A stretch of 64,000 nucleotides of DNA from an uncultured Solirubrobacterales bacterium (lineage in GTDB: Bacteria > Actinomycetota > Thermoleophilia > Solirubrobacterales > Solirubrobacteraceae), in assembly GCA_963794715.1 (NCBI GenBank), contig CAWCEY010000009.1:94385-158384 (forward strand). Reading direction: 5' to 3'. Made by a program: the position numbers and the translations under genes. Below are positions 3,424 through 51,496 of this stretch, piece by piece (the stretch's first letter is position 1; every line of letters starts with the position of its first letter). The notes below the pieces were generated by a model that made no database searches, was not told where the DNA came from, and saw only the letters and a list, made by a program, of their open reading frames with translations.

Positions 3424-3596
3424 GGGTTGTGTATGAAACTTTTCAGGCCCAACCCTTCATTTTGTAAAGCGAGGGCATGGGCTTGATGTCTTCTTTTTCG
3501 ACCCCCAACCCTTCATTTTGTGAAGCAAGGGCATGGGCTTGATGTCTTCGTTTTGGACCCCAACCCTTCATTTTGTAAAGGGTTGGGGTCCAAAAA
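3424..3596. repeat. AT-rich composite repeat: three units at 55-56 bp spacing, ending in a hairpin
   Basis: CCCAACCCTTCATTTTGT(A/G)AAG recurs at 3448, 3504 and 3559. Terminal inverted repeat TTTTGGACCCCAACCCTT...AAGGGTTGGGGTCCAAAA. Confidence 0.85.
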
Positions 3597-4517: not shown

Positions 4518-4708
4518 CCGGAGGCTCGGAACAGCCCATAGCCGGAGGCTCGGAACAGCCCATAGCCGGAGGCTCGGAACAGCCCATAGCCGGAGGCTCG
4601 GAACAGCCCATAGCCGGAGGCTCGGAACAGCCCATAGCCGGAGGCTCGGAACAGCCCATAGCCGGAGGCTCGGAACAGCCCATAGCCGGAGGCTCGGAAC
4701 AGCCCATA
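4493..4708. repeat. 24-bp tandem repeat GCCGGAGGCTCGGAACAGCCCATA: 8 perfect copies plus 1 degenerate
   Basis: Units start at 4517, 4541 ... 4685 with no spacers. The degenerate copy at 4493-4516 supplies the SDR stop codon. Confidence 0.97.
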
Positions 4709-5025
4709 GGCGTACGCTCAGGCAATGAGACGGCGTGCGGCCCAGGCAGCCCGGGGACGAACGCTCGGCCAGCGAGCTGCCGGGCAGCTCGTGCCAACCT
4801 CTCGACCGTCCGATGAGCCGAACACAGGCCGCGCAGGTTTCTCGGCTTGGCGCACGAATAAAGAAGCGGATCGCGAGAGATAACTGTCGAATAACGATCT
4901 GCCCGCCCGGGTAGAGGAAGTTCTCGGGTAGAGCAACTTATGGGCCTCCGATGGGCTCCAACAGGGGCGCACCGCCGTGTACAGGGTGGACGAACGTGCC
5001 CGTCGAGCCACTCCGCCAGGAATAA

Positions 5026-10459: not shown

Positions 10460-10493
10460 ATCGACCAGTCCGCCGGCTCGCCACGCGCAACCT

Positions 10494-10706
10494 CCCGAGG
10501 ACATCCCCGACAAAGCGGTTTCGCTGCGGCGGATCGGGCGGCTGTTCGTGCCCTACCGCGTGCGGCTCGGGTTGCTGCTGGGGCTGATCGTGTTCGGCTC
10601 GATCCTCAGGGTCGCCTCGCCCTTCCTGCTGCGCGAAGCGGTCGACAAGGGGATCGTCGGGCACGACCTGGAACTGCTGACGTGGATGGTGGCGGGGATG
10701 ATCGCG
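10494..10706 (+). pseudogene. Start-less 213-bp fragment of the ABC transporter gene (direct repeat of 22060-22272)
   Basis: 10 mismatches over 213 bp by manual alignment; homology ends abruptly at 10706. Confidence 0.93.
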
Positions 10707-10738
10707 TTGACGCATGCGATTGGTAGCGTGCTCGACAT

Positions 10739-11981: not shown

Positions 11982-12191
11982 ATGGCATTGGCCCTGAAAC
12001 GAATCCACACCGACTTCTCCGGCTACGAAGGCCAGTGGGTCGCGATCGACATGCGTACGGGCAAGATCGTGATTGCCGACAAGGACCCGCATGTGGTCCT
12101 GCGCAAGGCCAAGGGCCGCAACCACGTAGTCGTGCATGGCCGCGTCCCGTACGCGGATGAGCCGCTCCGCGACCACTTCGGCTTTGCCTGA
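11982..12191 (+). CDS. DUF5678-like small protein
   Basis: YEGQWVAID...IVIADKD pattern; TAAGAT-N6-ATG leaderless start; overlaps the next gene. Confidence 0.65.
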   Translation: MALALKRIHTDFSGYEGQWVAIDMRTGKIVIADKDPHVVLRKAKGRNHVVVHGRVPYADEPLRDHFGFA

Positions 12192-12579
12192 GACACCCCC
12201 GCTGCCCTGGCTGTACGCGTACCAGGAGGACGCCCATTCGACCCGGCTCAGCCAGCCGATCCTGCGGCCGTTCGTGCTGGTCTCGCTCGTGCACGGCAGC
12301 CAGAGCACCTCGCTGCTGCAAGGCCTGGTCGACACCGGCGCCGACGCGATCCTCGCGAGCGACCTGCTCACCGTCGAGCTCGAGATCGACCTCGACGACA
12401 ACGAGGGCGAAGCCACCCACGCGGTCGGTGGCAAGGTGCTTGAGACCCGCTACAAGACGCTCGATCTGCGTCTGTATCCCAGCGACGGCGCCGAGGACTC
12501 CTCCGTCAGCTCTTCTTGCCCCCTTTGGTCTTGTGCTTGGTGCTCTTCGCGTGCACGGCCTTCTTCGCGCAGCCGGTGA
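12184..12579 (+). pseudogene. Retropepsin-like (clan AA) aspartic protease, probably 3'-truncated near 12500
   Basis: RP.V.V...GLVDTGAD motif; TTG start overlaps the DUF5678 stop; the last ~25 codons are antisense of the next gene. Confidence 0.65.
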
Positions 12580-15442
12580 CCGTGACCGGCGTGATCTGGT
12601 GGATTTCGGCGCCGTTCTGGGCGACGAATTCAGTCGGCATCTGCAGTGTCGCCGGCTTGGTCTGTTTGGCCTTGCGGGTGATCGTCTTCGTTTGGCCGTG
12701 GATCTTGACCGTGACCTTCTTCTTGACCGTGACGGTCTTTGTGGTCGCGCAGAGGTTCCCGAGCGCGGTGAGTGCGCTGTAGGGGCCCTCTGGGAGCGTC
12801 AGTTCGAAGCTCGTGACGGGCTGGTCGGGGACGGTCTTGAACGTGCTTGACGTGACGCCGGCTTTGCTGATGAACGTGGTGCCGACCAGGTCGATCGTGA
12901 ACCCGTAGCCCTGCAGCACGACGATGAGACTTGGCCACCCTTCGCCGCCGTGGGAGACGAAATACGCGGGGCCTTCCAGCGGGACCGGGAGGATCGGAGT
13001 GATCGCCCTGGCGTGCCCGATGATCGACGCCGGCGGGCACCCCGCGGGGTTGGCTTCAAACTGTGCGGCGGTGCACGCTTTCTGCAGCGTCGGCAGACGG
13101 GAGGGCAACTGCTCGGGGAGTTCGACTTTGACGCGGCTGATGTTGGCCTGGGTGCCGAGCGCGCCGGGAACCGTGAGCTTCGCGGTCAGGCTCGCGCCGT
13201 CCGCGCGGCTGGTCTTCGCAGAGGTGGAGACGGAGAACGAGGGCTTGAACGCGAGGCTTGAGCAGTCCGCGGCCTCAAACGGCGTGTTCACACTCACCGG
13301 GACCTGGTCTGAGGGGTCGGCAAAGTTCGCGCCGGCGCCGTCGATCGTGTTCGTGATCTGTAGGGGGCTGCAGTTGGTGGGGTTGATGATGAACTTACTG
13401 CGGTCCATGTACACCCGGATGTCGCGGACGTGTACGACGATGCCTTTGATGATGTGGGGGATTGGGTCTGAGCCGTTGGCTGAGACTTCGACCTGTGCGG
13501 TCGAAGGGTTGATGTCGAGCGCGAAGCGGATCACGACAGTCCCCAAATCGAATGGGCCCACCTTGGCCGAAGTGATCGAGACGATCGATAGCGGCGCGCC
13601 ATGATATGGGCCCGCCAGATAGATCTTGCCGGGTGTTTGCGCGAGTACGGTGCCGACGCCCGCTTCGACGATTGTGTGCCCGATTTCGCTTGAGGCGGGG
13701 CAGGAAGGGTTTGCTTCCTCTTGTGCGCCGGTCATGTTCTTTGACGCTTCGATCGCGGCTTCGGGGCAGAACGGGATCCCTGTGAGGTTGCCGGTCAGTC
13801 CCGGTGGCAGCGTGGTCGAGAACCTGGTGAGCTCTTGTTCGCCGTCTTCGCGGATGATCCGCAGGTAGAACGGGCTGTAGGTGCCGCCGGCGTTGTTCTG
13901 GGTGCCGGAGATTACCTGGGGATGGAATGGTGGCACGCCACCGGAGGGGCAGGGGCCTTCGCGGACGCCCTGGGTGATCTGGAACGGCTGGCTCAAGGAA
14001 AAGCTCGGTTCTGCGGGTGCTGACCACGGCGTCAGCTGCGCCTGGGTGCTGTATGACCCGCACGCTGGTGGGCTCACCAGCGGCGCGGTCGCGCCAGGAC
14101 GGAACTTCAGCGTGAACTTGCTGAACGGCTGCTGGGGATTATCATCAAACGTCGTCACCAGCTGCCCCGTCACCGGGTTCGGCTCGATCTTGCCCGCGAC
14201 CTTCACCACGATCCCACGCGCGGGATCCTTCGCCACGACATACAGCGCGAGCAGCGACCCACCCGGGTGCTGCGGATCGCCGAACGCGGGAACATTGTCA
14301 TACGGTGTGGCGATGTAGATCGCGCCCGGGATCTTTTCCGCGAGCACCGGTGTTTCGATTTCGATCGAGCCGATCTTCGATTCAGGCGGACAACCAACCC
14401 CCGGCAAGGATTCCGCCGTCTCGGCTTCATACTCGCCCCGGGTGCACGCCCCAAGCCCCGCCGCCAGCGACGGGTTGGCCGTCACCCCTTCCGGAAGCGT
14501 CACCACCGCATCCTTCAGATTCGACGCGGACCTCGCCGTCGGATCTTCCCACGTCTGCGGGTTCACCACCGAGAAATCCAAGCCAGTGGGCGATTCCGCA
14601 GCGACCGTCGAGGGCGTCACCTCGATCGAGGGATGAAACGGCAAGCGTTCGCATTCGACCATCGGAGCGATCTGCGTGGTTTCTTCGAGCACTTCTTCAG
14701 GATCCTGCCAATCATTGCTCTTGAATGTCGCGGTGAACGGTTCCGAAGAGCAGCTCGTCGGGTTGGCGAGATACGGACGAGGACTGACGTCCGCCGACAG
14801 CCCACCACCGTGGCACACACCGTTCGTGCATTCCTGGCCACGCTGTTCGTCATGAGCCGGGTCAGCCGGAACCCCCCACACCGTGACAGACACTTCGGAA
14901 AGTTCGGTCAAACCCTGAAGATCTTCGCTGGTGATCGTCAGCCCCAGATCGCTAGGACGCACCTTGACCACCAAATTCTGAGTGATAATGCCACCAAGAT
15001 TGAACGCGAACATCGCCGCGATACCAGGATCGATGACTTCCATGTTATACAAAGGAAGAGTGACCAGCTCCGCGGTGGGACGATCGGGAGCACCCGAGAT
15101 CGCGAAGCTGATCGTCCCCACCTGAGAATCCGGCGAGCACTGCGGATGTTTGCTGTTGAGGAGCTCCGAAGCCGTGCAGGTCGCAACAGCGGTGTTGTTG
15201 CCGACGAAACCGGCGGGCAGTTCGACCGAGGTGGTCCTCGCGTTGCCCTGCGTCTGACCCGCGCCGTTATGAACGAATTTGAAAGCGGTCGTGAGATCCT
15301 CATGAACACCGGCCTGCTGAGTAGACGGAGTGACATGAAACGAGCCGGGCTGGATCGCAAACGCGCCGGCACCCGCCGGCAACACACCCCCCGCAAGAAC
15401 GCATACGGCAACGACCAGCCTCAAACGAGCAGCAGCGCTCAT
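12506..15442 (-). CDS. Large secreted protein (978 aa) with four ~230-aa Cys-containing repeats and a Lys-rich tail
   Basis: Signal peptide (RLRLVVAVCVLAGGVLPAGAGA); LP.G...C...CP..S.IG occurs four times; C-terminus KKAVHAKSTKHKTKGGKKS. Confidence 0.88.
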   Translation of the reverse strand: MSAAARLRLVVAVCVLAGGVLPAGAGAFAIQPGSFHVTPSTQQAGVHEDLTTAFKFVHNGAGQTQGNARTTSVELPAGFVGNNTAVATCTASELLNSKHPQCSPDSQVGTISFAISGAPDRPTAELVTLPLYNMEVIDPGIAAMFAFNLGGIITQNLVVKVRPSDLGLTITSEDLQGLTELSEVSVTVWGVPADPAHDEQRGQECTNGVCHGGGLSADVSPRPYLANPTSCSSEPFTATFKSNDWQDPEEVLEETTQIAPMVECERLPFHPSIEVTPSTVAAESPTGLDFSVVNPQTWEDPTARSASNLKDAVVTLPEGVTANPSLAAGLGACTRGEYEAETAESLPGVGCPPESKIGSIEIETPVLAEKIPGAIYIATPYDNVPAFGDPQHPGGSLLALYVVAKDPARGIVVKVAGKIEPNPVTGQLVTTFDDNPQQPFSKFTLKFRPGATAPLVSPPACGSYSTQAQLTPWSAPAEPSFSLSQPFQITQGVREGPCPSGGVPPFHPQVISGTQNNAGGTYSPFYLRIIREDGEQELTRFSTTLPPGLTGNLTGIPFCPEAAIEASKNMTGAQEEANPSCPASSEIGHTIVEAGVGTVLAQTPGKIYLAGPYHGAPLSIVSITSAKVGPFDLGTVVIRFALDINPSTAQVEVSANGSDPIPHIIKGIVVHVRDIRVYMDRSKFIINPTNCSPLQITNTIDGAGANFADPSDQVPVSVNTPFEAADCSSLAFKPSFSVSTSAKTSRADGASLTAKLTVPGALGTQANISRVKVELPEQLPSRLPTLQKACTAAQFEANPAGCPPASIIGHARAITPILPVPLEGPAYFVSHGGEGWPSLIVVLQGYGFTIDLVGTTFISKAGVTSSTFKTVPDQPVTSFELTLPEGPYSALTALGNLCATTKTVTVKKKVTVKIHGQTKTITRKAKQTKPATLQMPTEFVAQNGAEIHQITPVTVTGCAKKAVHAKSTKHKTKGGKKS

Positions 15443-18400
15443 CGCTTCACCCTCCCGTTCTTGCCGGCCTTCCCGGCTTTTTTCTTGGGTCTCGTCCTAT
15501 GCTTGCGCTTCTTGGTTTTCTTCGTGGTGGCATGCTTCGGTTTCCCGCCTTTCACCGCCGGTTTGCCGGACGGCACCGGCGTCACGTTCCCCGACCCGGC
15601 GAACGTCGAGCTCGACGGCGTCGCGTCGACCGGAGCGCTCGGCGGCGTTGAGCACGCATCCGCTTCGCATTCCACCGTCGAGGCCGCCGGCGGCGCGAAA
15701 CCACCATCGATCCGCACATCATAAAGATCCCCAGCGGTGTCCTGATCGGCCGGAGCCAGCTGCGAGTGAGTGGCTATCAGAACGTCCCGGCCCGAGGGAT
15801 CCGTACCGAGCAACACATTACGGAACCCATCAATCCCGTTCGTCAACAGAGCGACACAACCCGCGACCCGAGAACAACCATCGACACCATTCGCACGCCA
15901 CTCATACACATCCCAACTATGGCTGGGCGGTACAAACGTTTCTGGTTCTTCACCATCGATATCCTGGGGAACGAGCTCAGAGACCGACCTGAAGAACGCG
16001 AAGCGACCGTCGTCGGACCCCCACGTAGGACGCGGCGTAGCACCATTTATATACTTTTCTTTGCCCGCGCCGAGCTGCCCATAAGGCGCAAACTCGCCCC
16101 CTCCGGCCGGATGGAAGGCAGTGCACGCGATGCAGGTCGCAGTACCCGAATCGCGGTCATAGCGATACGGCCCCGCACCCGGCGCACCGAAGAAGCCCTG
16201 CTGAAAATAGAAGAAGCGGCCGTCCGCGGTGACGAAGAAGTGCGCGGACGCCTGGCCTTCTTCGCGGTCCTGGAAGATGAACTGGAGCTTTTCGCTGGCT
16301 ACGTCGAAAACGTACCAATTTTGGATCCCCTTGTTGTAACTGGTGATATCAGGGGTCGGCGGCGCTTCGGGCGTGAGTTGACGGGGCGAACTAAAATAGA
16401 CAGTGCTGGCGTCATTGGAGACCGTCGCGGCGATTCTTTCACCTGCCCTCTGCCCAAGGATCGCCTTGCTGCCGTCGAGCACGAGCGGCTTGAGTGTCCG
16501 AGTTTTGGTGTCGTAGCTGAACGTGATCTGTTCGCCGTCGTGGCCGAGCAAGAGCATCGCGCCGTTGGGGCTCGCGGCGTCGAAGGTATATTCGCCGATG
16601 TCAACGGTTTCAGACCCGTTCACCCGCATGTACAGGTGGCTGTGATATACGGCCGGGTCATAGCGGAGCCCACCCGCTGGACACGGGCCGTCAGGGATCG
16701 CTTCGAAGAAGATCTTGGAGCCGTCTTCGGAGATCGCGTGGGCAGCGAAGACGTCCACGTAACCTTCGAAGTTTTCGCTGCCGAGGGGAACCCTGGCGCC
16801 GCAGACGCCGATCGTGTGGCCCTGCGAATCGACGTTCACCTGCGCCAGGCCGGCCCGGGCGGTGTATTCATACAGGTCGGGAAGGCCCGCGGCGGTCGTG
16901 CTCTGAGGCAGTCCGGGCAACGCGTGGTCACGGGTCATCACCACAAGCTTGCTGAGCGTCGGCGTGGCAGCCGCCCACATATCCTTGCCTTCACCATTTT
17001 CGAGCAACTGATTGAAAGGTGTCGAAGCGACAGGCGTGTAAGGGCCACCGTCGGGACCAAGCAGCAGATCCTGGTCAGCTGAATGACTCTGATAAGTCGG
17101 TTCGGAATAGCGAGCGAGGGCGACCTGCGAAAGATCCGCGCTGAAGATTTCCGGCAGATACGTGTCCTCCCCAGAGCCAGGCGGCGTGAGCGAGGTCATC
17201 CGCCAGCCGGCAGTGGGATCGCGGTCAAAGACATAATCGGACACGAACGGGTTGGGATCCGAGCCGTACTTCGCGAGCGTCCGCAGCAAGACGTGTTCGC
17301 CGCCTTCGCCGAGACGCGCCAGCGAGGAGGCCGAGCCGTAGTTGAAATTGTCCTGCGCGCCGTTCTTACTCGCCGGCGTGATCAACTCATAGGCACGACA
17401 GTCCGGCAGGCGAGCCGCGAGCCCGGAACGGAAACTTTCGTTCGGACAGGACACCGACGGCTGCGCAGGCGCGGGAACAGGGACAGTGAACGTCTGTTCA
17501 GCACCAGCGATAACCCCCGCTTCGCTATGCGCAAGCAGACGATAATGATAAGTGACGCCAGACTGCAATCCAGGCAGCGTGACACCCACGATCTGCGACT
17601 GGTAGAGCAGGAGATTGGCCTTACCTTCCTGTGAGCGTTCTTCAGTGCGGTGAGCCCCGACGCCAAGGTCAACGTCGGGGCTCGTCTCAGGGTTGGCAAA
17701 ACCTTCCGCTTCGAAGTGTTGCTGAGTGACGTACTCGACGTGATAGTGAGCGTCAGTCGTCACGCTGCGAGGATCGACCGAGCCGAGGACGCGGAACGAT
17801 TCGCCGTCGAGGACCCGGGTGGCAAACGTGACCGCGGCGGGCGGACCTGCGGTTTCGAAGCCGATCGGCGAGGTGGTCTGGGAGCCAGCCGCGTTTTCGG
17901 CAAAGAGGCGCACATAGTAGATGGTGGCCGGGTTCAGGCCGGTGAGGTCGGTGGAGAAGCTGTGAGGCTCCTGGTCGGCTTCGCCGGCGGGGATGGTTCC
18001 TTCAACGCCCGGGGTCCACGGACCGGTTTCCGAGCTGGCCGTTTCAAAGCGCCAATGCGTTTCGGAGCTGTCGGGGATGACGGTGCCTGGGACGTGGGCG
18101 GCGGTAGCGGAGACGTTGTCGGGCAAGCCGACGTTCGGGCGCGGCTGGGCCGGTGAGGTGGCGAATGTGGCCGTCTCAGTCGCGGAGCCTAGGGAGTTGG
18201 AGGCGAACGCGCGAACGTAGTAGACGGTCTGGGGGGTGAGGCCGGTGAGGTGCGCGACCTTCGTCGGAGCAAAATCTTCAGCGACGCTGACGCTGCCTTC
18301 GGTGCCCGCGACCGGGATGTAAAAACCATTTTCTTCGGTCGAGTAAGCAAGGTGATATTCAGTCGGGATGCCATCCGTGTCCAGTTCGGCGAAGACACTG

Positions 18401-19029
18401 GCCGCAGTAGGGGTAGGCAACGAAGCAGAACACATATGGGGTGTAGTGTTTTCGAAGGACTGTGGCACCCTTTCGATTCCCTCGCCGCTGCCACATTTAG
18501 CAACAAGAAATTCGGGAGCAGCGGGCGCCTTCGTGGTGAATTCGGCCTGGTTCGGTGGCGCTTCGCCGAAAGAGTTCTTCGCGGTGACGCGGACAGTGTA
18601 GGTGGTGCTGGGATGAAGCCGCTTGATCGATTGGCCGCCGACAGTTTCAAACGAGCACTGTTCGGTGCAGGTGAGACTTGTGAACAGCTGCCAGGCGGCG
18701 GGGTTGGAAGGTTCGGTGGTGTATTCGAGGCGTGCTTCGGTCGTTGCGCCTTCGGCCGAAATGATCTGATCGACTTCGGCGCGAGTGGAGTATACGTGTT
18801 CGATTTCGAGCGTAGCGAGGCGAGGGGGGCCGGCGGCAACTGCGGGCGCCGTGGCGACGGCGAGGAAGAGGAGGAGAACAGCAGGGAGAACGGCCATGAC
18901 CGCCGACCGGCGAAGGGCAGGAGCGGATGAGGGCGCGCCACTGCCCCGGGCCAAGCGCAAGACACCGAGACGAGAAACGACACCCCTCGTGGCGTCAGGC
19001 GTCTTTTGGGATCGCTCCAGATAAGTCAC
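15439..19029 (-). CDS. Large secreted protein: about four FN3-like repeats, a beta-propeller-like region and a Lys-rich tail
   Basis: GTG 19029 follows GAGAAAGG; LTGL.P.T.YYVR repeats; ISEDGSKIFF and SDDGRFAFF blades; ATGA overlap with the downstream gene. Confidence 0.85.
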   Translation of the reverse strand: MTYLERSQKTPDATRGVVSRLGVLRLARGSGAPSSAPALRRSAVMAVLPAVLLLFLAVATAPAVAAGPPRLATLEIEHVYSTRAEVDQIISAEGATTEARLEYTTEPSNPAAWQLFTSLTCTEQCSFETVGGQSIKRLHPSTTYTVRVTAKNSFGEAPPNQAEFTTKAPAAPEFLVAKCGSGEGIERVPQSFENTTPHMCSASLPTPTAASVFAELDTDGIPTEYHLAYSTEENGFYIPVAGTEGSVSVAEDFAPTKVAHLTGLTPQTVYYVRAFASNSLGSATETATFATSPAQPRPNVGLPDNVSATAAHVPGTVIPDSSETHWRFETASSETGPWTPGVEGTIPAGEADQEPHSFSTDLTGLNPATIYYVRLFAENAAGSQTTSPIGFETAGPPAAVTFATRVLDGESFRVLGSVDPRSVTTDAHYHVEYVTQQHFEAEGFANPETSPDVDLGVGAHRTEERSQEGKANLLLYQSQIVGVTLPGLQSGVTYHYRLLAHSEAGVIAGAEQTFTVPVPAPAQPSVSCPNESFRSGLAARLPDCRAYELITPASKNGAQDNFNYGSASSLARLGEGGEHVLLRTLAKYGSDPNPFVSDYVFDRDPTAGWRMTSLTPPGSGEDTYLPEIFSADLSQVALARYSEPTYQSHSADQDLLLGPDGGPYTPVASTPFNQLLENGEGKDMWAAATPTLSKLVVMTRDHALPGLPQSTTAAGLPDLYEYTARAGLAQVNVDSQGHTIGVCGARVPLGSENFEGYVDVFAAHAISEDGSKIFFEAIPDGPCPAGGLRYDPAVYHSHLYMRVNGSETVDIGEYTFDAASPNGAMLLLGHDGEQITFSYDTKTRTLKPLVLDGSKAILGQRAGERIAATVSNDASTVYFSSPRQLTPEAPPTPDITSYNKGIQNWYVFDVASEKLQFIFQDREEGQASAHFFVTADGRFFYFQQGFFGAPGAGPYRYDRDSGTATCIACTAFHPAGGGEFAPYGQLGAGKEKYINGATPRPTWGSDDGRFAFFRSVSELVPQDIDGEEPETFVPPSHSWDVYEWRANGVDGCSRVAGCVALLTNGIDGFRNVLLGTDPSGRDVLIATHSQLAPADQDTAGDLYDVRIDGGFAPPAASTVECEADACSTPPSAPVDATPSSSTFAGSGNVTPVPSGKPAVKGGKPKHATTKKTKKRKHRTRPKKKAGKAGKNGRVKR

Positions 19030-19170
19030 GGGCGTACCTTTCTCGTTGGTGTGGCGCATGTGGTCTAGTCCGGTGAATGAGATGTGTTGGCGATATGCAG
19101 AGATGGGCCACCGAGGCCTCCCCGTGGCCGACTGGCGACCGCGGGGAGACACCCAGCTTGGCAAGCGCCG

Positions 19171-20022
19171 CTAGGGAGCGGTCACCGCCCACGAACCGGA
19201 GAAGCCGGCACCATATCCCGGTTCTGGTTCTTCCGGAGCGACAAAGATCATGTGAGCGCCACTGGTAGGGGTGGTGGTCGCCTCGGGCTTTTCATCTTGG
19301 AATTCGAAGAATTCCATATTTCCGTTTGCCGCGGTTTCAGCGTACACACAGAGGTTGCCTTCGACGGCAGACGGCACCGCCGCGGATCCCGGACATTCGG
19401 CGGGCGCCGTGTGACCTTCCACTTCAGCAGCGGTGACAAAATGAGCCTTCCCCTTGGCGAGCGGCGCCGCCAGGGGTATCGCGTAGGAGAGCGGTTCGAC
19501 GTAGAGACCCGCGGTATGGACGCTGAAGCCCCAGGTGCCGGTCTCGGTCTTGCCTTCGGGGAGCGTTTCCGTGAAGCCGGTCTGGCCGTTTTCGCCGTTG
19601 CACGCATACGTCGTCCCGCTCGCGGAGACGAACTTCGAGCCGCCGGCTTTGCAGTTGACGCCCGCGGGCTCTTTGCTACTGGTGACGCTCACCCCAGCGG
19701 CGCCGTCTTGACCGTTGGTCCCATTGGTGGCGTCTTTGCCCGCCGCGCCTGCTGGTCCTGCCGGCCCGGCGGGGCCGGCAGCTCCGGTAGCGCCCTGGGG
19801 GCCGGCGGGGCCGCGAGGGCCGGCCTTCGTTTTGGGCTTGGCCTTGCTCTTGGCGATAGTCGCAACCGGGGCTCCGCGCCTGACGGAAGCAGTCGTCTTC
19901 GAGCCGGTACCGCCGCCCCTGCCACCGCTCGCGGCGAACGCGCCACCGGTGATCGCGAAGACCAGCGCCACAAAGGCCAGGATCGTCGCGGGGGTAATGT
20001 GCCTACGTAGTGTCTGGAACAT
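19171..20022 (-). CDS. Secreted collagen-like (Gly-X-Y) protein
   Basis: AGGAGG RBS; signal peptide; GPRGPAGPQGATGAAGPAGPAGPAGAAGKD run; Cys-containing C-terminal domain. Confidence 0.88.
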   Translation of the reverse strand: MFQTLRRHITPATILAFVALVFAITGGAFAASGGRGGGTGSKTTASVRRGAPVATIAKSKAKPKTKAGPRGPAGPQGATGAAGPAGPAGPAGAAGKDATNGTNGQDGAAGVSVTSSKEPAGVNCKAGGSKFVSASGTTYACNGENGQTGFTETLPEGKTETGTWGFSVHTAGLYVEPLSYAIPLAAPLAKGKAHFVTAAEVEGHTAPAECPGSAAVPSAVEGNLCVYAETAANGNMEFFEFQDEKPEATTTPTSGAHMIFVAPEEPEPGYGAGFSGSWAVTAP

Positions 20023-21987: not shown

Positions 21988-23892
21988 ATGAGCAGCTTCC
22001 ACGGCGAGGGCCGCGGTGGACAGGGGGGCGGCCCGCCGCGTGCGCCCAAAGCGCTCCGCCCCGAGGACATCCCCGACAAACCGGTTTCCCTGCGGCGGAT
22101 CGGGCGGCTGTTCGTGCCCTATCGCGTGCGGCTGGGGCTGCTGCTGGGGCTGATCGTGTTCGGCTCGATCCTCAGCGTCGCCTCGCCGTTCCTGCTGCGC
22201 GAAGCGGTCGACAAGGGGATCGTCGGGCACGACCTGGAACTGCTCACGTGGCTGGTGGCGGGCATGATCGCGCTGGCGATCATCAACGGCGTGATCGGCG
22301 TGGCGCAGACGTGGATCTCCAACCAGGTCGGCCAGCGCGTGATGCACGACCTGCGCGCCGCCGTGTACGCGCACCTGCAGCGGATGTCGCTGGCGTTCTT
22401 CACGCGCACCCGCTCGGGCGAGGTGCAGGCGCGGATCGCCTACGACATCGGGGGCATCGACGACGTCGTCACGAGCACCGCGACCTCCACCGTCTCCACG
22501 ATCGCCACCGTCACCGCGACGATCGTCGCGATGTTCGCGCTGAGTTGGCAGCTGACCCTGTTCTCGCTGATCCTGCTGCCGTTCTTCGTGTGGCTGACGC
22601 GCCGCGTGGGCAACGAGCGCCGGCGCATCCAGTCGGTGCGCCAGGGCCGGCTCGCCGACATGTCCACGCTGGTCGAGGAGTCGCTGTCGGTGTCGGGCAT
22701 CCTGCTCGGCAAAACGATGGGCCGCTCCGGCGAGCTGGTCGAGCGCTTCTCCTCGGAGTCCTCCGAGCTCGCCGACCTGGAGGTGCGCGCGCGGATGGCG
22801 GGCCGCTGGCGGATGGCCTCGGTGCAGATGAGCTTCGCGATCATGCCCGCCGCCGTGTACTGGTTTTCCGGCTACACCTCCGTGCACGGTCACGCTGTGA
22901 TCTCGATCGGGACCGTGGTCGCCTTCACCACGCTGCAGACCCGCCTGCTGTTCCCGATGCAGCAGCTGCTGTCGGTGGGCCTAGAAGTGCAGACCTCGCT
23001 GGCGCTGTTCGGGCGGATCTTCGAGTACCTCGACCTGCCGATCGACATCGTCGAACGCCCCGGCGCCCGGCCGCTCGGCGCGGGCGCGGCGAGCCGCGAT
23101 GGCGCGGTGGGCCGGGAGAACGGAACGGGCCCCCGCGATGGCGTCGCCTGCGAGGTGCGCCTGGAGGACGTGTGGTTTCGCTACCGACCCGACGGCCCGT
23201 GGACGCTGCGGGAGATCGCCGCCGAGATCCCCGCGGGGACGCGCACCGCGCTGGTGGGCGAGACTGGCTCGGGCAAGACCACGCTCGCCTACCTCGTCGC
23301 GCGTCTGTACGAGCCCGAGCGCGGGCGCATCACGATCGACGGCACCGACATCCGCGACGTGACGCTCGCCTCGCTCGCCGCCACCGTGGGGCTGGTCTCG
23401 CAGGAGACCTATCTGTTCCACTCCTCGATCGGCGAGAACCTCCGCTTCGCCTGTCCGGAGGCAAGCGACGAGCAGATCGAAGACGCCGCGCGCGCCGCGC
23501 AGATCCACGAGCTGATCGTCTCGCTGCCCGACGGCTACGACACCCCCGTGGGCGAGCGCGGCTACCGCTTCAGCGGCGGGGAGAAGCAGCGCATCGCGAT
23601 CGCGCGCACGATTCTGCGCAACCCGCCGGTGCTGATCCTCGACGAGGCCACCTCCGCCCTGGACACCGAGACCGAGCGCGCGGTGCAGCTCGCGCTCGAC
23701 GAGCTCTCCCGCGGGCGCACCACAATCGCGATCGCCCACCGCCTCTCCACCGTGCGCGACGCCGACCAGATCCTCGTGCTCGACGCGGGGCGCATAGTGG
23801 AGCGCGGCACGCACGATGAGCTGCAGGAGCTGGGGGGACGCTACGCGGCGCTGACGGGGCGGGCGGAGACGGACTCCGCCGCGCTGGCGTGA
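21988..23892 (+). CDS. ABC exporter, fused permease/ATPase
   Basis: TM domain; Walker [10 protein letters not shown]; FSGGEKQR; [10 protein letters not shown]. Confidence 0.95.
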
Positions 23893-27291: not shown

Positions 27292-28401
27292 TCAAACGGG
27301 CAATGCAAGCTGATCCTCCGCGGGCATGCCCGCCGCCTCCGTCTGGCGCCCGGCGGGGGTGACCCCGCCGAGGCCGGCGACGCGCACGCCCAGCAGCCTC
27401 ACGGGCCGCGGCGGGGCGTACTCGCGCAGCAGTCGTTGGGCAACCGAGTTGACCAGCTGTGAATCGCACGTCGGCTCGGCGAGCGTGTGCGCGCGAGTCA
27501 CCGTGGTGAAGTCGTCGAGGCGCACCTTGATCCCGATCGTGCGCCCGCTGCGCCCGTGCGCGGCGAGGCTGGCACACAACTCGGTTGACATCCGCTCCAG
27601 CAGCGCTCTCAGCTGCGCGGGGTCGTGGAGGTCTTGGTCGAAGGTGCGCTCGCGCGACTCCGAGACCACCTTGCGCGCGGCGCCCACCACACCGTCGTGT
27701 TCGAAGCGCGCGCGGCGGCCCAACTCGCGGCCGAGGTTGGGGCCGAAGCGCTCCACCAACACACTCTCGGGCGCGGCGGCGAGGGCGGCGAGCGTGGTCA
27801 GCCCCAGCTCCGCCAGCCGCGCGGCGGTCTTGGGGCCGATCCCGGGCACGAGTCCCGGGGGGGAGCCGCCGAAGCGCGCGCACGCCTGCTCGCGGCTCAG
27901 CACCACGAAGCCCGCGGGCTTCTCCGCGTCGGAGGCGACCTTCGCCACGAGCTTGTTGGGGCCGATCCCCACCGAGCACACGATCCCCGTCGCCTCGCGG
28001 ATCTCCCGCACCAGCCGGCGCATCGCCGCGCGAGGGGAGTAGAGGCCGCTGACGTCGAGGTAGGCCTCGTCGAGCCCCACCACCTCGACCCGCTCGACCT
28101 GCGCACGCACGATCCCCATCACCCTCCCCGACACCTCGCGGTAGGTGGGGAAGTCGGGCGGGAGGAACACCGCCTGCGGGCACAGCCGTCGGGCGCGCGC
28201 GGCGGGGATGGCAGAGCCTACGCCGAAGCGCCGCGCCTCATAGCTCGCGGTCGTGACGACCGCGCGTGGGCCGGTGCCGGCGACGACCACCGGCAACCCG
28301 CGCAGCTCGGGCCGGCGTTGCAGCTCGATCGAGACGTAGAAGGCGTCGGCGTCGAGGTGGGCGGTGCTCAGCTCAGAGGGCTCGGGGGGCTCGGCAGACA
28401 C
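27292..28401 (-). CDS. dinB: DNA polymerase IV (Y-family)
   Basis: HLDADAFYVSIE, TASYEARRFGV, GLDEAYLD, NKLVAKVASD. Confidence 0.95.
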   Translation of the reverse strand: MSAEPPEPSELSTAHLDADAFYVSIELQRRPELRGLPVVVAGTGPRAVVTTASYEARRFGVGSAIPAARARRLCPQAVFLPPDFPTYREVSGRVMGIVRAQVERVEVVGLDEAYLDVSGLYSPRAAMRRLVREIREATGIVCSVGIGPNKLVAKVASDAEKPAGFVVLSREQACARFGGSPPGLVPGIGPKTAARLAELGLTTLAALAAAPESVLVERFGPNLGRELGRRARFEHDGVVGAARKVVSESRERTFDQDLHDPAQLRALLERMSTELCASLAAHGRSGRTIGIKVRLDDFTTVTRAHTLAEPTCDSQLVNSVAQRLLREYAPPRPVRLLGVRVAGLGGVTPAGRQTEAAGMPAEDQLALPV

Positions 28402-28501
28402 TCTCGGGCGAATCTAGCGCCCCTTCCGGCGGGGTGTGATGGGCTCTTGTGCCGACAGGTTCGCACCCCTCCGCCGAACGCGCGGCTCTGGCGAGCCCAG
28501 C

Positions 28502-28900
28502 CTACCCCGTGAGCGCCGAGGCGATGTCCGTGTGCCGGAAGTCCTCGCCCTTGAACAGCAGCGGCTCTCCCGTCGTCCTTGCCAGCGCGTAGGAGAAGCA
28601 GTCGCCGAAATTCAGGCCGGCAGGGTGGCCGCTGCCCTTCCCGAAATCGCGGTAGGCCTCGCGCGCGATCCGCGCATGGCTCGCCGTCACCGGTTCGATC
28701 CCGATGCCCGCGGTGATTAATAGCTCGTCCACGCGCCGGCTGGCGATCGCATCCCCCGCGCGGTCGATGACCGCCCCCACCTCCACATAGCTGGCCGCGG
28801 ACAGCCGACGTACGCTCGCCGACTCGATCGCATCCGCGCATGCCGCTGCCTCCGGCTCGGCGCGAAGGATCGCGATGATGGCCGAGGTGTCGAGGATCAC
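28502..28900 (-). CDS. vapC: VapC PIN-domain toxin
   Basis: [11 protein letters not shown]; [12 protein letters not shown]. Confidence 0.95.
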
Positions 28901-29151
28901 GCCGGCAGGCCGTTCTCGTCGTAAAGCAACTCGCCGTGGTCGATCCTCCGCACACGCTCGGGCAGCCGCCCAGCGCAGTCCCTGCCGATCTCGAGCATCC
29001 GCTCCGCCAGGCCGCCTGACCGCTCGGCGAGGACCCTGTCGCGCCGCTCACGCACGGCGATCGTGACGGCTGAGCTCATGCTTTCCCCAGTCAGCTCGGC
29101 AAGTTCGCGCGCGAGCTCGTGCGCCTCTGGATTCTTCACATTCAGCGACAT
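28897..29151 (-). CDS. vapB: VapB antitoxin (Rv0623-like)
   Basis: [24 protein letters not shown]; LLYDENGLP; overlaps the vapC start. Confidence 0.93.
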
Positions 29152-29158
29152 TGGTTGC

Positions 29159-29198
29159 AGTCTACCATATGATGGTAGCTTTCTACCGCCCTGGTAGA
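29159..29198 (-). promoter_or_regulatory. vapBC leaderless promoter with two palindromic operators
   Basis: -10 TAGACT 7 nt before the ATG; CTACCAT-N3-ATGGTAG (29162-29178) and TCTACC-N5-GGTAGA (29182-29198). Confidence 0.7.
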
Positions 29199-29225
29199 CG
29201 AGCCCCCGATAGCAGACATCGAGAC

Positions 29226-30026
29226 CTACCTCTGTTGCTCGACCAACGCCCCGGGCCCGACTTCGTCGATCGCGGCGTACCCGCTGAGCGCCATCGCCAG
29301 ATCGAGGTCGGCGAGGAACGAGCGCAGCACCTCGGCCACGCCCTGCGCGCCGCCCAGCGCGAGGCCCCAGATGTAGGGGCGGCCGAGCAGCACCGCGCGG
29401 GCGCCGAGCGCGAGCGCCTTCAGCGCGTCCGAGCCGGAGCGGATGCCGCTATCGAAGAGCACCTCGCAGCGGCCCTCAACGGCGGCCACCACGTCGGGCA
29501 GCGCGTCGAGCGCACCGACGGCGCCGTCCACCTGGCGCCCACCGTGGTTTGAGACCAGCACCCCCTGCACCCCGTGCTCGACCGCGAGACGTGCGTCGTC
29601 GGGGCGCAGAATGCCCTTCAGCACGATCGGCAGCTCGGTGCACTCGCGCAGGAACGCGAGGTCCTTCCAGGTGACGGCTGGGTTGGCGAACTGCCATGCC
29701 CAGTGGCCGATCGCGGCCTGCATGTTCTCCTCCGGCGGGGCCGGCAACGCCGCGCGGAAAACGGGGTCCTCCAAGTAGTTGCGGTTGCCCTCCCCCCACA
29801 GGAACGGCAGGAAGCCGTTCGTCAAATCAGCGGGGCGCCACCCGAGCAGCCACGTGTCGAGCGTCAGCACGATCGCGCTGTAACCGGCGCGCTCGGCGCG
29901 CTCCACGAAACTGCGCGCCAGCTATGTGGAGGTGGGGGCGGTCATCGACCGCGCGGGACGTTGTCCGCCCAGCCCGCGCAGGTAGATCTCGTACTGGTAG
30001 TTGGCGTAGGGGACCTGCTCGCTCAC
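29226..30026 (-). pseudogene. FMN-dependent alpha-hydroxy acid oxidase (lactate 2-monooxygenase-like) with internal deletion and in-frame stop
   Basis: N-terminus VSEQVPYANYQYEIYLRGL; C-half [32 protein letters not shown] at 29922-29924 lies inside a vapC-derived insert. Confidence 0.88.
29918..29957. repeat. 40-bp perfect inverted copy of vapC bases 28755-28794
   Basis: CCCGCGCGGTCGATGACCGCCCCCACCTCCACATAGCTGG at 28755 (+); its reverse complement at 29918. Confidence 0.95.
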
Positions 30027-30096
30027 GCGCACCGCCTCTCAGGTAGTCGCCGACCGTGGACTCTACCGGCGTGCGGTGGGACGTCCGCGTGCGGCC

Positions 30097-30522
30097 CTAT
30101 GGGGCCCCGCCCTCGGGCAGCAGCGTGAAGCCGGCCACGTGCCGCGGGCGCACAACCGCGAAGTGGCGGCGATCGAGCGTGGCGATCTCGCGGGCGGCGT
30201 GGCGTTCGGCGAGAACGACCACCGATGCGTCCACGATGCCGAGCGGCAGATCCCCGTACTGCTCCACCAACTCCGCGATGCGCTCCCACTCCGACTCGCG
30301 CACCGACTCGACGACGACCTCGCCGTCGGCGATCGCACGCGCGAACGCGATCTCGGCGTGGGGGCCGATGCGATCGCCGAGCAGATACGAGACCTCAGTT
30401 ACAACCAGCTCGGGGACAAGCAGCGGCCGTGAAGCGCCGGTGAGCAGTTCGACGCACCGGCGATGGTTGCGATCACGCGTGGCCGAAGCCGCGTAGATCG
30501 GCCCGGCGTCGAGGATCAGCAC
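30097..30522 (-). CDS. vapC: VapC PIN-domain toxin (second locus)
   Basis: VLILDAGPIYA; VVTEVSYLL; LGIVDASVV; TLDRRHFAVV. Confidence 0.92.
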   Translation of the reverse strand: MLILDAGPIYAASATRDRNHRRCVELLTGASRPLLVPELVVTEVSYLLGDRIGPHAEIAFARAIADGEVVVESVRESEWERIAELVEQYGDLPLGIVDASVVVLAERHAAREIATLDRRHFAVVRPRHVAGFTLLPEGGAP

Positions 30523-30770
30523 TACCGCGGACGGATCGTCTCGCGGCTGCCGAGAGCGTGCCCCACGTAATCCTCGACGTGCTCGGATACGTCGTCCGGA
30601 CCGCCCTCCCCGACGGCGAAGAAGGACAATCGACCATCCTTGGGCGGGCTGGGCAGGTCTCGCTCGATCGCCCGGCGGGCAACATCGGCGATCGAAACGC
30701 CCTGCCGCCTGGCCTCCTGACGCATCCGGGCATCGAGATCGTCGGGAACCATAATGGTTGTGCGCTTCAT
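30522..30770 (-). CDS. vapB: CopG/ribbon-helix-helix antitoxin
   Basis: MKRTTIMVPDDLDARMRQEARRQGVSIADVARRAI; TATGCT-N6-ATG; TAGTG overlap with vapC. Confidence 0.88.
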   Translation of the reverse strand: MKRTTIMVPDDLDARMRQEARRQGVSIADVARRAIERDLPSPPKDGRLSFFAVGEGGPDDVSEHVEDYVGHALGSRETIRPR

Positions 30771-30864
30771 GCATACAGCATAACGCATCACAGGATAGCC
30801 GGCGAGCTCGGCACCCAGACGAGGACGGCGCCACGATCTCGCCTCGCGAAGGGCGGCAGGACGC

Positions 30865-31299
30865 TCACGCGCTCGCCCACATCTCCCCCACGCCTTCGAA
30901 CCGGAGCGCGCGCGCCGTCGCTTCGGTGAGGTCGTATTCGCGGCCTCCCACGTAGGGGCCGCGGTCGACGACGGGCACACGCACGGTGCGCCCGTGGTAG
31001 CGCAGCGTCACGCGTGTGCCGCACGGCAGGGTCTTGTTGGCGACGCCCATCGTGGAGCTCGTCAGTAAGCCTCCGCAGGCGAGGCTGCCGCCGCCTCCGT
31101 ACCACGAGACCTCGACGAGGCGGTAGGGCTGCCGGTGGCGGTGCCCGTGGCCCGTCCGAGGGTGTGTGGCGCGATGCGCGCTCGACGACGTCGTGGCGCG
31201 AGTGGCGGACGGGGTGGGCGCGCGGGTTTCCTTCACCTCCGCCACTATTCCCACGGGCGTAAGGGGCAACGCGGTCAACGCGGACGCGGGTACGTACAT
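30865..31299 (-). CDS. rlpA: RlpA-like double-psi beta-barrel (lytic transglycosylase-like) protein
   Basis: SWYG...GVANKTLPCGTRV...VPVVDRGPYVGGREYDLT; GAGGAGG RBS before ATG 31299. Confidence 0.8.
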   Translation of the reverse strand: MYVPASALTALPLTPVGIVAEVKETRAPTPSATRATTSSSAHRATHPRTGHGHRHRQPYRLVEVSWYGGGGSLACGGLLTSSTMGVANKTLPCGTRVTLRYHGRTVRVPVVDRGPYVGGREYDLTEATARALRFEGVGEMWASA

Positions 31300-31317
31300 A
31301 CGGTCCTCCTCGGTCAC

Positions 31318-31486
31318 CGCCTACGGGGTTAGCTGTCGGGCTCACGCGCCGCCGGCGCACGATGGCGTGCGTCGGCGCGGGCGTTACGGCCGCATCAGCG
31401 GCCGATTCGCCCCATCCGGACCGCTCTCTGGCGGTCCGGCAGTGGGTCCCCCGCTCGCCTCCAACGACGGAGGCGACTCGGCTGAA
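31318..31486 (-). ncRNA. c-di-AMP (ydaO/yuaA) riboswitch
   Basis: Minus strand reads GCCGAGUC...GCGGGGGACCCA...UGGGGCGAAUC...GAGCCCGACAGCUAACCCCGUAGGC; lies directly upstream of a cell-wall enzyme gene. Confidence 0.85.
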
Positions 31487-31692
31487 TCGAACTCGGCACG
31501 ATAGAGCGGCAGCCGCCCGTTTCAATGTGCGTTTGATCACAGATGGCCGCTGCACGCGCCCGATCAAGGGGGCGGCCGGTCAAAGACACGGGTTTTCTAC
31601 GCCTTCGCCACACGCACTTGAGAGCCCATTTGGAGTCGATTTCTCATCCGCGCGTTGACGGACGGCCTTCCAGCAGCGACAATCCACGCCCG

Positions 31693-51470: not shown

Positions 51471-51496
51471 CTTCATTTTGTAAATGGTTGGAGTCC
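51471..51496. repeat. Solo copy of the 3566-3591 AT-rich unit
   Basis: CTTCATTTTGTAAATGGTTGGAGTCC, 24/26 identical to CTTCATTTTGTAAAGGGTTGGGGTCC. Confidence 0.75.

What the first reader, a model, noticed from the sequence alone, without database searches (positions are those of the whole stretch)
28755..30026. Lactate-oxidase-family gene with its middle replaced by an inverted 40-bp copy of the adjacent vapC toxin gene
Seen: 29918-29957 is the exact reverse complement of vapC 28755-28794. It joins codon ~23 of the oxidase to its C-terminal half in the same frame but brings one TAG. Roughly 130-140 codons are missing relative to a typical ~390-aa family member (estimate). Inference: a double template switch (FoSTeS/MMBIR-like) using short microhomologies about 1.1 kb away, a rarely seen footprint in bacteria, and next to dinB. 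An assembly chimera is the main alternative.
Basis: partly seen in the sequence, partly recalled or inferred. Interest (0 to 1): 0.68.

Follow-up and report, generated by a model that had tools for sequence, protein, structure and literature searches.

The report
Gene broken by copied-in toxin-gene snippet
A soil bacterium's lactate-oxidising enzyme gene was recently destroyed when DNA copying jumped to the neighbouring toxin gene, copied about 30 bases backwards and jumped back; this is a clean natural example of a known mutation type, not a new biological system.

Summary
Window 29917-29957 is the exact reverse complement of 28755-28795 (41 nt, not 40) inside an intact vapC (PIN) gene. No other exact inverted repeat of 20 nt or more exists in the 64 kb, apart from one self-palindrome.

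A close relative (L004, 97.5-98% identical in the aligned blocks on either side of the gap, same gene order, identical VapC) carries the intact 391-aa lactate 2-monooxygenase-like gene. Against it, the window has lost 400 nt (gene nt 79-478) and gained 25 nt found only in vapC. The two junctions are a 9-nt (CCCGCGCGG) and a 7-nt (AGCTGGC) microhomology. The net change is -375 nt, which keeps the frame, but a TAG forms at 29924-29922.

The donor vapC is unchanged, so the patch was copied rather than moved.

It is not an assembly chimera. Independent k-mer contigs of run ERR11523675 cover junction 1 (L007, exact) and junction 2 (L005, 1 SNP). An Illumina run, X1, holding the same strain also covers junction 2.

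Best explanation: one recent microhomology-primed double template switch across strands (FoSTeS/MMBIR type). The retained gene parts differ from L004 at 3 of 776 nt and at no amino acid. The adjacency to dinB is incidental. This is a new instance of a known kind of mutation and of modest interest.

The parts
29958..30026 (-). N-terminal remnant of the lactate 2-monooxygenase-like gene: GTG start and codons 1-23, oxidase-only sequence
   Evidence: Identical at protein level to L004 residues 1-23. There are 2 nt differences in the first 78 nt.
29949..29957 (-). Junction 1 microhomology CCCGCGCGG (sense strand; codons 24-26, P-A-R). It is present in both the ancestral oxidase and the vapC antisense strand. 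Its 8-nt core CCGCGCGG is a palindrome.
   Evidence: Orthologue alignment. The junction is read through by L007, an exact match to window 29928-31418.
29924..29948 (-). 25-nt insert found only in vapC (sense TCGATGACCGCCCCCACCTCCACAT), the inverted copy of vapC 28764-28788
   Evidence: Absent from the intact orthologues L001, L003 and L004 and present in the vapC of both the window and L004.
29917..29923 (-). Junction 2 microhomology AGCTGGC, shared by vapC antisense and oxidase gene nt 479-485
   Evidence: The junction is read through by the X1 606-nt contig (29352-29957, 0 mismatches) and by L005 (28766-29946).
29922..29924 (-). In-frame TAG stop (codon 35). The T comes from the vapC-derived insert and the AG from microhomology 2.
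   Evidence: Translation and sequence.
29226..29916 (-). C-terminal remnant of the oxidase gene, ancestral nt 486-1176 including the stop. The 226-aa ORF 29226-29906 is what a gene caller would report.
   Evidence: Pfam FMN_dh 129-348/350, E 3.7e-78. There is 1 nt difference and no aa difference from L004 over 698 nt.
28755..28795 (+). Donor (template) segment inside vapC, codons 36-49 ([14 protein letters not shown]). It is unchanged.
   Evidence: vapC has a full-length PIN match, residues 1-125. The same 41-mer is in the vapC of L004, whose oxidase is intact.
28502..28900 (-). vapC, PIN-domain toxin gene, intact
   Evidence: Pfam PIN, E 7e-22. The protein is identical to that of L004.
28897..29151 (-). 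vapB antitoxin gene (Rv0623-like). It overlaps vapC by 4 nt and lies between the two repeat arms.
   Evidence: Pfam PSK_trans_fac, E 1.8e-25.
27292..28401 (-). dinB (DNA polymerase IV). It is context only and not part of the event.
   Evidence: Pfam IMS plus IMS_C. NCBIfam DNA polymerase IV models: PRK02406 scores 276.4 against a cut-off of 256; the three higher-scoring models listed fall below their own cut-offs.
30097..30773 (-). Second toxin-antitoxin pair (RHH antitoxin 30522-30773, PIN toxin 30097-30522) on the other side of the oxidase gene. It is context only.
   Evidence: Pfam. It is also present in L004 but absent from L001 and L003.

Best explanation
The lactate 2-monooxygenase-like gene of this Solirubrobacteraceae-type strain was inactivated recently by one copy-choice event. 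This was a microhomology-primed double template switch between the two DNA strands.

Proposed steps (inferred):
1. A growing 3' end that had just made ...CCCGCGCGG (oxidase codons 24-26) left its template.
2. It annealed to the only inverse-oriented CCCGCGCGG nearby. That site is on the opposite strand inside vapC, about 1.56 kb away in the ancestral arrangement.
3. It copied 32 nt there, running in the opposite direction, through AGCTGGC.
4. It left again and re-annealed to AGCTGGC in the oxidase gene, 400 nt beyond the departure point, and continued.

Shown result: a 400-nt deletion, a 25-nt inverted vapC patch, 9-nt and 7-nt microhomology junctions, an in-frame TAG, an intact donor, and a new perfect 41-bp inverted repeat 1,121 bp apart.

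Shown: the junction structure, the ancestral state, the direction of copying, the recency, and the reality of both junctions in independent data.

Inferred: that it was a single event, and that it happened at a stalled or uncoupled replication fork. Negative GC skew suggests the minus strand is the leading strand, which would make it a leading-strand end switching to the lagging-strand template ahead of the fork.
For: - Exact 41-nt inverted pair, unique in the window.
- L004 is a close relative with the same gene order, an identical VapC and an intact 391-aa oxidase. The window aligns to it as 31142-29949 = L004 5382-6577 and 29923-27368 = L004 6978-9533. That leaves 400 nt of L004 unmatched against 25 nt of the window.
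- The junction sequences show CCCGCGCGG and AGCTGGC shared by both parents. The chance of 9 or more matching bases is 1.3e-5, and of 7 or more 1.6e-4.
- Within 5 kb of L004, the vapC site is the only inverse-oriented copy of either motif.
- The donor vapC is intact in the window.
- The retained oxidase parts differ from L004 at 2 of 78 and 1 of 698 nt, with no aa change.
- Both junctions appear in independent contigs: L007 covers 29928-31418 exactly, L005 covers 28766-29946 with 1 SNP, and an X1 contig covers 29352-29957 with no mismatch.
- X1 is an Illumina library, shown by Nextera adapter sequence in the loose ends, and holds the same strain with 1 listed base difference in 16 kb.
- Contig ends fall 30 nt (k-1) inside the arms, as a k=31 graph requires for a true 41-nt repeat.
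- Cumulative GC skew falls across most of the window.
- Known precedent: 4-15 bp microhomology junctions and long-distance template switching in E. coli. In that work, a leading-to-lagging switch gives an inversion that needs a second switch to be viable (PMC1428787). Inverted templated insertions flanked by microhomology are the MMBIR signature (PMC8421209).
Against: - No raw reads were available, only Logan contigs, so allele frequency and single-molecule linkage of the two junctions could not be measured.
- The two junctions are joined on one molecule only in the window's own assembly. In k=31 contigs the 41-nt repeat breaks the path.
- The type of run ERR11523675, and whether it is independent of the window's source data, is unknown.
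- No stall-prone structure was found at the junctions (z -0.2 to -1.7).
- The template lies 1.1-1.56 kb away. This is much further than the 100 bp or less used to define templated insertions in PMC8421209.
- Sequence alone cannot separate a fork-based switch from break-repair synthesis.
Confidence: 0.8

Rival explanations
1. Double-strand-break repair rather than fork switching. A break in the oxidase gene was resected. One 3' end annealed by 9 nt to single-stranded vapC DNA and was extended by 32 nt. It then dissociated and joined the other resected end through the 7-nt microhomology. This would be synthesis-dependent microhomology-mediated end joining, or MMBIR in the strict sense. The product is identical to that of the best explanation; only the initiating lesion and the enzymes differ.
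For: The junction anatomy is the same. Templated inverted insertions at breaks are documented in yeast (PMC11724301), and microhomology end joining with template switching in bacteria (bioRxiv 10.1101/2022.03.14.484287).
Against: It needs vapC, 1.1-1.5 kb away, to be single-stranded at the time. That is more natural at an uncoupled fork. Nothing in the sequence favours a break.
Confidence: 0.13
2. Artefact: an assembly chimera, or chimeric molecules made during library preparation or amplification (for example MDA-type inverted chimeras, which also show microhomology).
For: The window's origin is undisclosed. No raw reads were seen. The junction pattern is absent from the GTDB representative genomes and the JGI metagenome contigs.
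Against: Both junctions are reproduced by a different assembler from run ERR11523675 (L005, L007). Junction 2 is also reproduced in a second run, X1, at k-mer depth about 7 in a Nextera Illumina library. Logan contigs in these runs go down to a mean word depth of 2, consistent with a requirement for repeated k-mers (my understanding of Logan), so single chimeric reads are unlikely to yield such contigs. The k=31 graph cannot create a path through 9-nt or 7-nt overlaps. The window is otherwise a clean assembly with long intact ORFs.
Confidence: 0.03
3. Two successive break-and-join recombinations, for example two inversions between the inverted 9-mers and the inverted 7-mers, rather than copying.
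For: Both motif pairs are in inverted orientation, which is what inversions use.
Against: Reciprocal exchange would swap the segments, placing the 400 nt of oxidase in vapC in place of its 25 nt. Instead vapC is intact and the 400 nt is gone. Recombination at 7-9 nt occurring twice is also less parsimonious.
Confidence: 0.02
4. The 41-bp inverted repeat is a functional element, either an invertible switch or an RNA stem controlling vapBC, rather than a by-product of mutation.
For: The arms bracket vapB and the first 35 codons of vapC. No terminator-like site lies between the oxidase remnant and vapB, so a read-through transcript could form a 41-bp stem.
Against: The repeat is absent from the near-identical relative L004 and from all other orthologous loci. 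It destroys a conserved enzyme gene. No inverted isomer was seen.
Confidence: 0.02

Closest known systems
FoSTeS / MMBIR templated insertions (MMB-TI; PMC8421209) and long-distance template switching in E. coli (Slack et al. 2006, PMC1428787)
   Same: Two novel junctions, each at a short microhomology (9 and 7 nt, against 4-15 bp in E. coli). The inserted patch is an inverted copy of nearby sequence. The donor is unchanged. A deletion accompanies the event. A cross-strand switch requires a second switch to restore polarity.
   Different: The template is 1.1 kb away now and about 1.56 kb from the departure point in the ancestor. The MMB-TI definition uses 100 bp or less. This is a natural allele in an uncultured soil actinobacterium, not a selected laboratory event, and no amplification is involved. 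The enzymes are unknown.
Quasipalindrome-associated template-switch mutations in E. coli (PMC7202029, PMC6357072) and short-range template switches in eukaryote genomes (PMC7954356)
   Same: Copying of the opposite strand by a displaced 3' end, which creates or perfects an inverted repeat.
   Different: Those events act within a pre-existing imperfect inverted repeat a few to tens of bases apart and change a few bases. Here there was no prior quasipalindrome, only 9-nt and 7-nt matches. The arms lie over 1 kb apart and 400 nt was lost.
ODIRA-type leading-to-lagging strand switching at short inverted repeats (PMC10766183)
   Same: A nascent strand crosses the fork at a short inverted repeat. 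The CCGCGCGG core here is palindromic.
   Different: ODIRA yields inverted triplications through hairpin-capped intermediates. Here the strand switched back after 32 nt, giving a small patch plus a deletion.
L-lactate 2-monooxygenase (PDB 6dvh/6dvi) of the FMN-dependent alpha-hydroxy-acid oxidase family
   Same: The intact allele in L004 matches 6dvh over residues 7-383 (E 2e-108). Sources name the close homologues lactate 2-monooxygenase.
   Different: The window's copy lacks the sequence from codon 27 to the first base of codon 160 and carries a stop at codon 35. It is a pseudogene.

Membership tests
Microhomology-mediated template-switch rearrangement (FoSTeS/MMBIR type) | Novel junctions coincide with short sequence identity between the two parental sites | tested here: met
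   9 nt (CCCGCGCGG) and 7 nt (AGCTGGC) sit at the two junctions. Chance probabilities are 1.3e-5 and 1.6e-4.
Microhomology-mediated template-switch rearrangement (FoSTeS/MMBIR type) | The inserted sequence is copied from a nearby template that itself stays unchanged (non-reciprocal) | tested here: met
   vapC is intact, with a PIN match over residues 1-125 and the same 41-mer in L004. The 400 nt deleted from the oxidase is not found in vapC.
Microhomology-mediated template-switch rearrangement (FoSTeS/MMBIR type) | Template close to the insertion (100 bp or less in the MMB-TI working definition, PMC8421209) | tested here: not met
   The distance is 1,121 nt between the arms now, and about 1,560 nt from the departure point in L004. 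This is within the kilobase-range 'long-distance' class of PMC1428787.
Microhomology-mediated template-switch rearrangement (FoSTeS/MMBIR type) | Arises in one replication or repair-synthesis event at a stalled or broken fork | not testable with these tools
   This is inferred only from parsimony and from the need for a second switch to restore strand polarity.
Quasipalindrome-associated template-switch mutation | A pre-existing imperfect inverted repeat whose arms are made more complementary | tested here: not met
   The ancestral-type oxidase sequence in L004 shares only the 9-nt and 7-nt motifs with vapC. The 25 nt between them is unrelated.
Assembly or library chimera | Junctions not reproduced in independent data or by an independent assembler | tested here: not met
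   Junction 1 is in L007 and junction 2 in L005 (run ERR11523675). Junction 2 is also in an X1 contig.
FMN-dependent alpha-hydroxy-acid oxidase/dehydrogenase (Pfam PF01070), lactate 2-monooxygenase-like | Complete FMN_dh TIM-barrel domain in one reading frame | tested here: not met
   Only profile positions 129-348 of 350 remain in the 226-aa ORF, and there is a stop at codon 35. The orthologues are complete at 391 aa.
VapBC type II toxin-antitoxin module | PIN-domain toxin gene preceded by, and overlapping, a small antitoxin gene | tested here: met
   PIN (E 7e-22) and Rv0623-like antitoxin (E 1.8e-25), with a 4-nt overlap at 28897-28900. Toxicity and neutralisation were not tested.

The most novel reading that the evidence does not exclude
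By chance, the event built a perfect 41-bp inverted repeat that brackets vapB and the first 35 codons of vapC. Such arms could support RecA-mediated inversion of 28796-29916. Inversion would sever vapC after codon 49 while leaving vapB whole, giving an accidental toxin on/off switch. Alternatively, the arms could form a 41-bp RNA duplex in a read-through transcript that alters vapBC expression. More broadly, kilobase-range cross-strand template switching may be a regular source of pseudogenes and new inverted repeats in wild high-GC Actinobacteria.
Probability: 0.06. Interest if true: 0.6.

Novelty: new member of a known kind. Interest (0 to 1): 0.36.

Why it matters
- It is an unusually clean natural record of a double template switch in a bacterium. 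The ancestral allele is available in a near-identical strain, both microhomologies are unambiguous, the donor is intact, and almost no later mutations blur the picture.
- It shows that cross-strand switching can reach more than 1 kb in an uncultured soil actinobacterium. It also shows that such events make pseudogenes and new perfect inverted repeats in one step.
- Practically, it warns annotators that the 226-aa 'FMN_dh' ORF here is a gene fragment.
- It does not reveal a new system or function.

Tried and rejected
- Searches for the junction sequence in GTDB representative genomes and JGI metagenome contigs (49-nt and 27-nt patterns) found nothing. The allele is therefore not widespread in those sets.
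- Runs X2, X3, X21-X26, X34, X36, X37 and X41 gave no informative coverage of the junctions. X4 holds a relative about 92% identical that carries the intact allele.
- X1 has a coverage gap at 29958-30060, so it could not confirm junction 1.
- Looking up the dinB product to recover the vapC-distal contig failed because there is no exact product on record.
- Folding the junction regions as single-stranded DNA showed no unusual hairpin that might explain stalling.
- The truncated homologues P0040, P0055, P0044 and P0064 were checked as possible sister deletions. They are ordinary N-terminally shortened proteins with none of the vapC-derived patch.
- MAFFT misplaced the short N-terminal remnant. 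The junctions were therefore read by hand and by BLAST.
- dinB adjacency as a cause was rejected on general grounds.

Full report
**1. Observation**

The region holds a perfect 41-nt inverted repeat, 28755-28795 and 29917-29957, with 1,121 nt between the arms. None of 100 dinucleotide-preserving shuffles gave a match even with 3 mismatches allowed. A whole-window scan shows no other exact inverted match of 20 nt or more, apart from a self-palindrome at 60528.

**2. Genes**

All genes in this block lie on the minus strand:
- dinB, 27292-28401 (IMS and IMS_C domains; NCBIfam DNA polymerase IV).
- vapC, 28502-28900 (PIN domain over residues 1-125).
- vapB, 28897-29151 (Rv0623-like antitoxin, overlapping vapC by 4 nt).
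- A 226-aa ORF, 29226-29906, matching Pfam FMN_dh positions 129-348 of 350.
- A second PIN/RHH pair, 30097-30773.
- A DPBB_1 gene, 30865-31317.

Reading 30026->29226 in one frame gives VSEQVPYANYQYEIYLRGLGGQRPAR, then SMTAPTST, then a stop, then [14 protein letters not shown]... through to the normal end. The left arm of the repeat is vapC codons 36-49 ([14 protein letters not shown]).

**3. Ancestral state**

The C-terminal ORF has thousands of homologues. The closest are 391-aa proteins named lactate 2-monooxygenase from Solirubrobacteraceae metagenome bins, at up to 94% identity. The intact protein matches the solved lactate 2-monooxygenase 6dvh over residues 7-383 (E 2e-108).

Looking up the window's exact VapC sequence returned L004, a 723-kb contig (ENA ERZ25039517). 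It has the same gene order: DPBB_1, RHH, PIN, FMN_dh (391 aa, intact), vapB, vapC, dinB. More distant relatives (L001, L003) keep DPBB_1, FMN_dh and, in L003, dinB, but lack both toxin-antitoxin pairs.

**4. The rearrangement, base by base**

BLAST of the window against L004 gives two blocks. Window 31142-29949 equals L004 5382-6577 (97.5%), and window 29923-27368 equals L004 6978-9533 (98.2%).
- L004 6578-6977 (400 nt, gene nt 79-478) has no counterpart in the window.
- Window 29924-29948 (25 nt) has no counterpart in the L004 oxidase.
- Those 25 nt, with 9 nt on one side and 7 nt on the other, are the inverted vapC segment. L004's own vapC carries the same 41-mer.

On the sense strand the ancestor reads ...CAACG(C/T)CCCGCGCGG|CCG(T/C)TGGAC... 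and ...GACCG(G/C)G|AGCTGGC|GCGCAG... The window reads ...CAACGTCCCGCGCGG|TCGATGACCGCCCCCACCTCCACAT|AGCTGGC|GCGCAG....

Both junctions therefore sit on microhomologies shared by the oxidase and the vapC antisense strand: CCCGCGCGG (9 nt, whose CCGCGCGG core is itself palindromic) and AGCTGGC (7 nt). With this base composition, the chance of 9 or more matching bases is 1.3e-5, and of 7 or more 1.6e-4. In 5 kb of L004 around the locus, the vapC site is the only inverse-oriented copy of either motif.

The net change is -375 nt, or 125 codons, so the frame is kept. However, the last T of the patch plus the AG of the microhomology make TAG at 29924-29922.

**5. Copy, not cut-and-paste, and recent**

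vapC is intact. The 400 nt removed from the oxidase is not in vapC. A reciprocal double inversion through the same motifs would have swapped the two segments, so break-and-join recombination is excluded and the patch must have been synthesised on vapC as template.

The retained oxidase parts differ from L004 at 2 of 78 and 1 of 698 nt, with no amino-acid change. Between 28400 and 29200 the two strains show no difference at all, while the flanks reach several differences per 100 nt. The pseudogene is therefore very young.

**6. Is it real?**

The window's source is not disclosed. The window has long intact ORFs and looks like a clean assembly. Three independent pieces of evidence reproduce the junctions.
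- **X1.** This soil metagenome is an Illumina library, shown by Nextera adapter sequence in the loose ends. It holds the same strain at about 3-4x, with one listed base difference in 16 kb. It has a 606-nt contig equal to window 29352-29957 with no mismatch at depth about 7. That contig crosses junction 2 and the whole 41-mer.
- **L005** (run ERR11523675, 1,181 nt). It equals window 28766-29946 with one SNP, 28992 C>T.
- **L007** (same run, 1,491 nt). It is an exact match to window 29928-31418. It reads through junction 1 into 21 nt of vapC-only sequence...GGACAACGTCCCGCGCGG|TCGATGACCGCCCCCACCTCC.

L005 and L007 stop exactly 30 nt (k-1) inside the arms, as a k=31 de Bruijn graph must at a true 41-nt repeat. 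Such a graph cannot jump across 9-nt or 7-nt overlaps, so an assembler chimera is excluded. Logan contigs in these runs go down to a mean word depth of 2, consistent with a requirement for repeated k-mers (my understanding of Logan), which makes single chimeric reads an unlikely source.

Some limits remain. Only contigs were available, not raw reads. Linkage of both junctions on one molecule rests on the window's own assembly. Allele frequency is unknown. X4 contains a relative about 92% identical that carries the intact allele. The junction is absent from GTDB representative genomes and JGI metagenome contigs.

**7. Mechanism**

The anatomy is that of a microhomology-primed double template switch. 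The steps below are inferred.
1. A nascent 3' end finishing in CCCGCGCGG dissociates.
2. It pairs with the opposite strand at vapC, about 1.56 kb away in the ancestral layout.
3. It is extended 32 nt in the reverse direction through AGCTGGC.
4. It dissociates again and re-pairs with AGCTGGC 400 nt beyond its point of departure.

Cumulative GC skew falls over most of the window. By the usual rule that the leading strand is G-rich, the minus strand is the leading strand. The oxidase sense strand would then be the nascent leading strand, and the vapC template the lagging-strand template ahead of an uncoupled fork. This is inference only.

Slack et al. (PMC1428787) describe 4-15 bp microhomology junctions and long-distance template switching in E. 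coli. They note that a leading-to-lagging switch yields an inversion that needs a second switch to be viable, which is what is seen here. Inverted templated insertions flanked by microhomologies are the accepted MMBIR signature (PMC8421209), although there the template lies within 100 bp.

A break-initiated version (synthesis-dependent end joining) gives the same product and cannot be excluded. No unusual hairpin was found at the junctions. dinB being next door is irrelevant to where a mutation falls.

**8. Consequences**

The enzyme gene is dead. There is a stop at codon 35, and the region from codon 27 into codon 160, the first half of the FMN-binding barrel, is missing. vapBC is untouched.

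The event created a perfect 41-bp inverted repeat enclosing vapB and the 5' end of vapC. No terminator-like site separates the oxidase remnant from vapB. Inversion between the arms, or an RNA duplex in a read-through transcript, is therefore conceivable. There is no evidence for either.

**9. Verdict**

The artefact alternative is rejected with good, though not read-level, evidence. This is a new, well-resolved instance of a known mutational mechanism, notable for the kilobase reach and for being caught fresh in an uncultured soil actinobacterium. It is not a new kind of system. Interest is modest (0.36).

Noticed in passing
window 31304-31493 (-): c-di-AMP (ydaO-type) riboswitch, Rfam RF00379, 45.3 bits against a gathering score of 38. 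It lies directly upstream of the DPBB_1 (RlpA/lytic-transglycosylase-like) gene 30865-31317. I recall this pairing as known in Actinobacteria; it was not checked here.
   Followed up: partly
window 28400-29200 compared with L004: The vapBC module shows no differences between the window and L004 across 28400-29200, and the oxidase remnant (29226-29923) has only one or two. The flanks (27300-28400 and 30000-30400) carry 1-14 differences per 100 nt. This suggests recent exchange or a sweep of this segment between strains.
   Followed up: partly
window 30097-30773 and 28502-29151; L001, L003: The oxidase gene is flanked on both sides by toxin-antitoxin pairs (RHH-PIN and VapBC). These are absent at the same locus in L003. 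In L001 a Fic protein and a TrwC relaxase gene sit there instead. The locus looks like a hotspot for accessory-gene insertion.
   Followed up: partly
window 4495-4709: Nine near-perfect (99%) tandem copies of a 24-nt unit (CGGAGGCTCGGAACAGCCCATAGC). The array begins at the 3' end of a short-chain dehydrogenase ORF, 3687-4517.
   Followed up: no
window 3448-3580 and 51471-51496: A visibly A+T-richer 56-nt unit repeated 2.4 times in tandem in this roughly 70% GC sequence (...CCCAACCCTTCATTTTGTAAAG...). A related 26-nt copy lies 48 kb away. There is no Rfam or tRNA hit.
   Followed up: no
window 10470-10712 and 22036-22278; 12000-20000: A 243-nt direct repeat (91% identity) lies 11.6 kb apart and brackets a lower-GC stretch (0.62-0.64 against about 0.70). 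That stretch encodes very large FN3/Ig-repeat proteins (1,241 aa; 978 aa with no Pfam hit) and a collagen-like protein. It may be an acquired island.
   Followed up: partly
L004 1480-4582: In L004 the NAD synthase and WS/DGAT genes are split into several short ORFs, with many gaps relative to the window (37 gap openings in 1.5 kb). The window has them intact at 600 aa and 583 aa. L004 probably carries long-read indel errors, so its small indels should not be trusted.
   Followed up: partly
window 28992: There is a single C>T difference between the window and the ERR11523675 contig L005. X1 agrees with the window at this position. This indicates minor population variation on the rearranged allele.
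   Followed up: no
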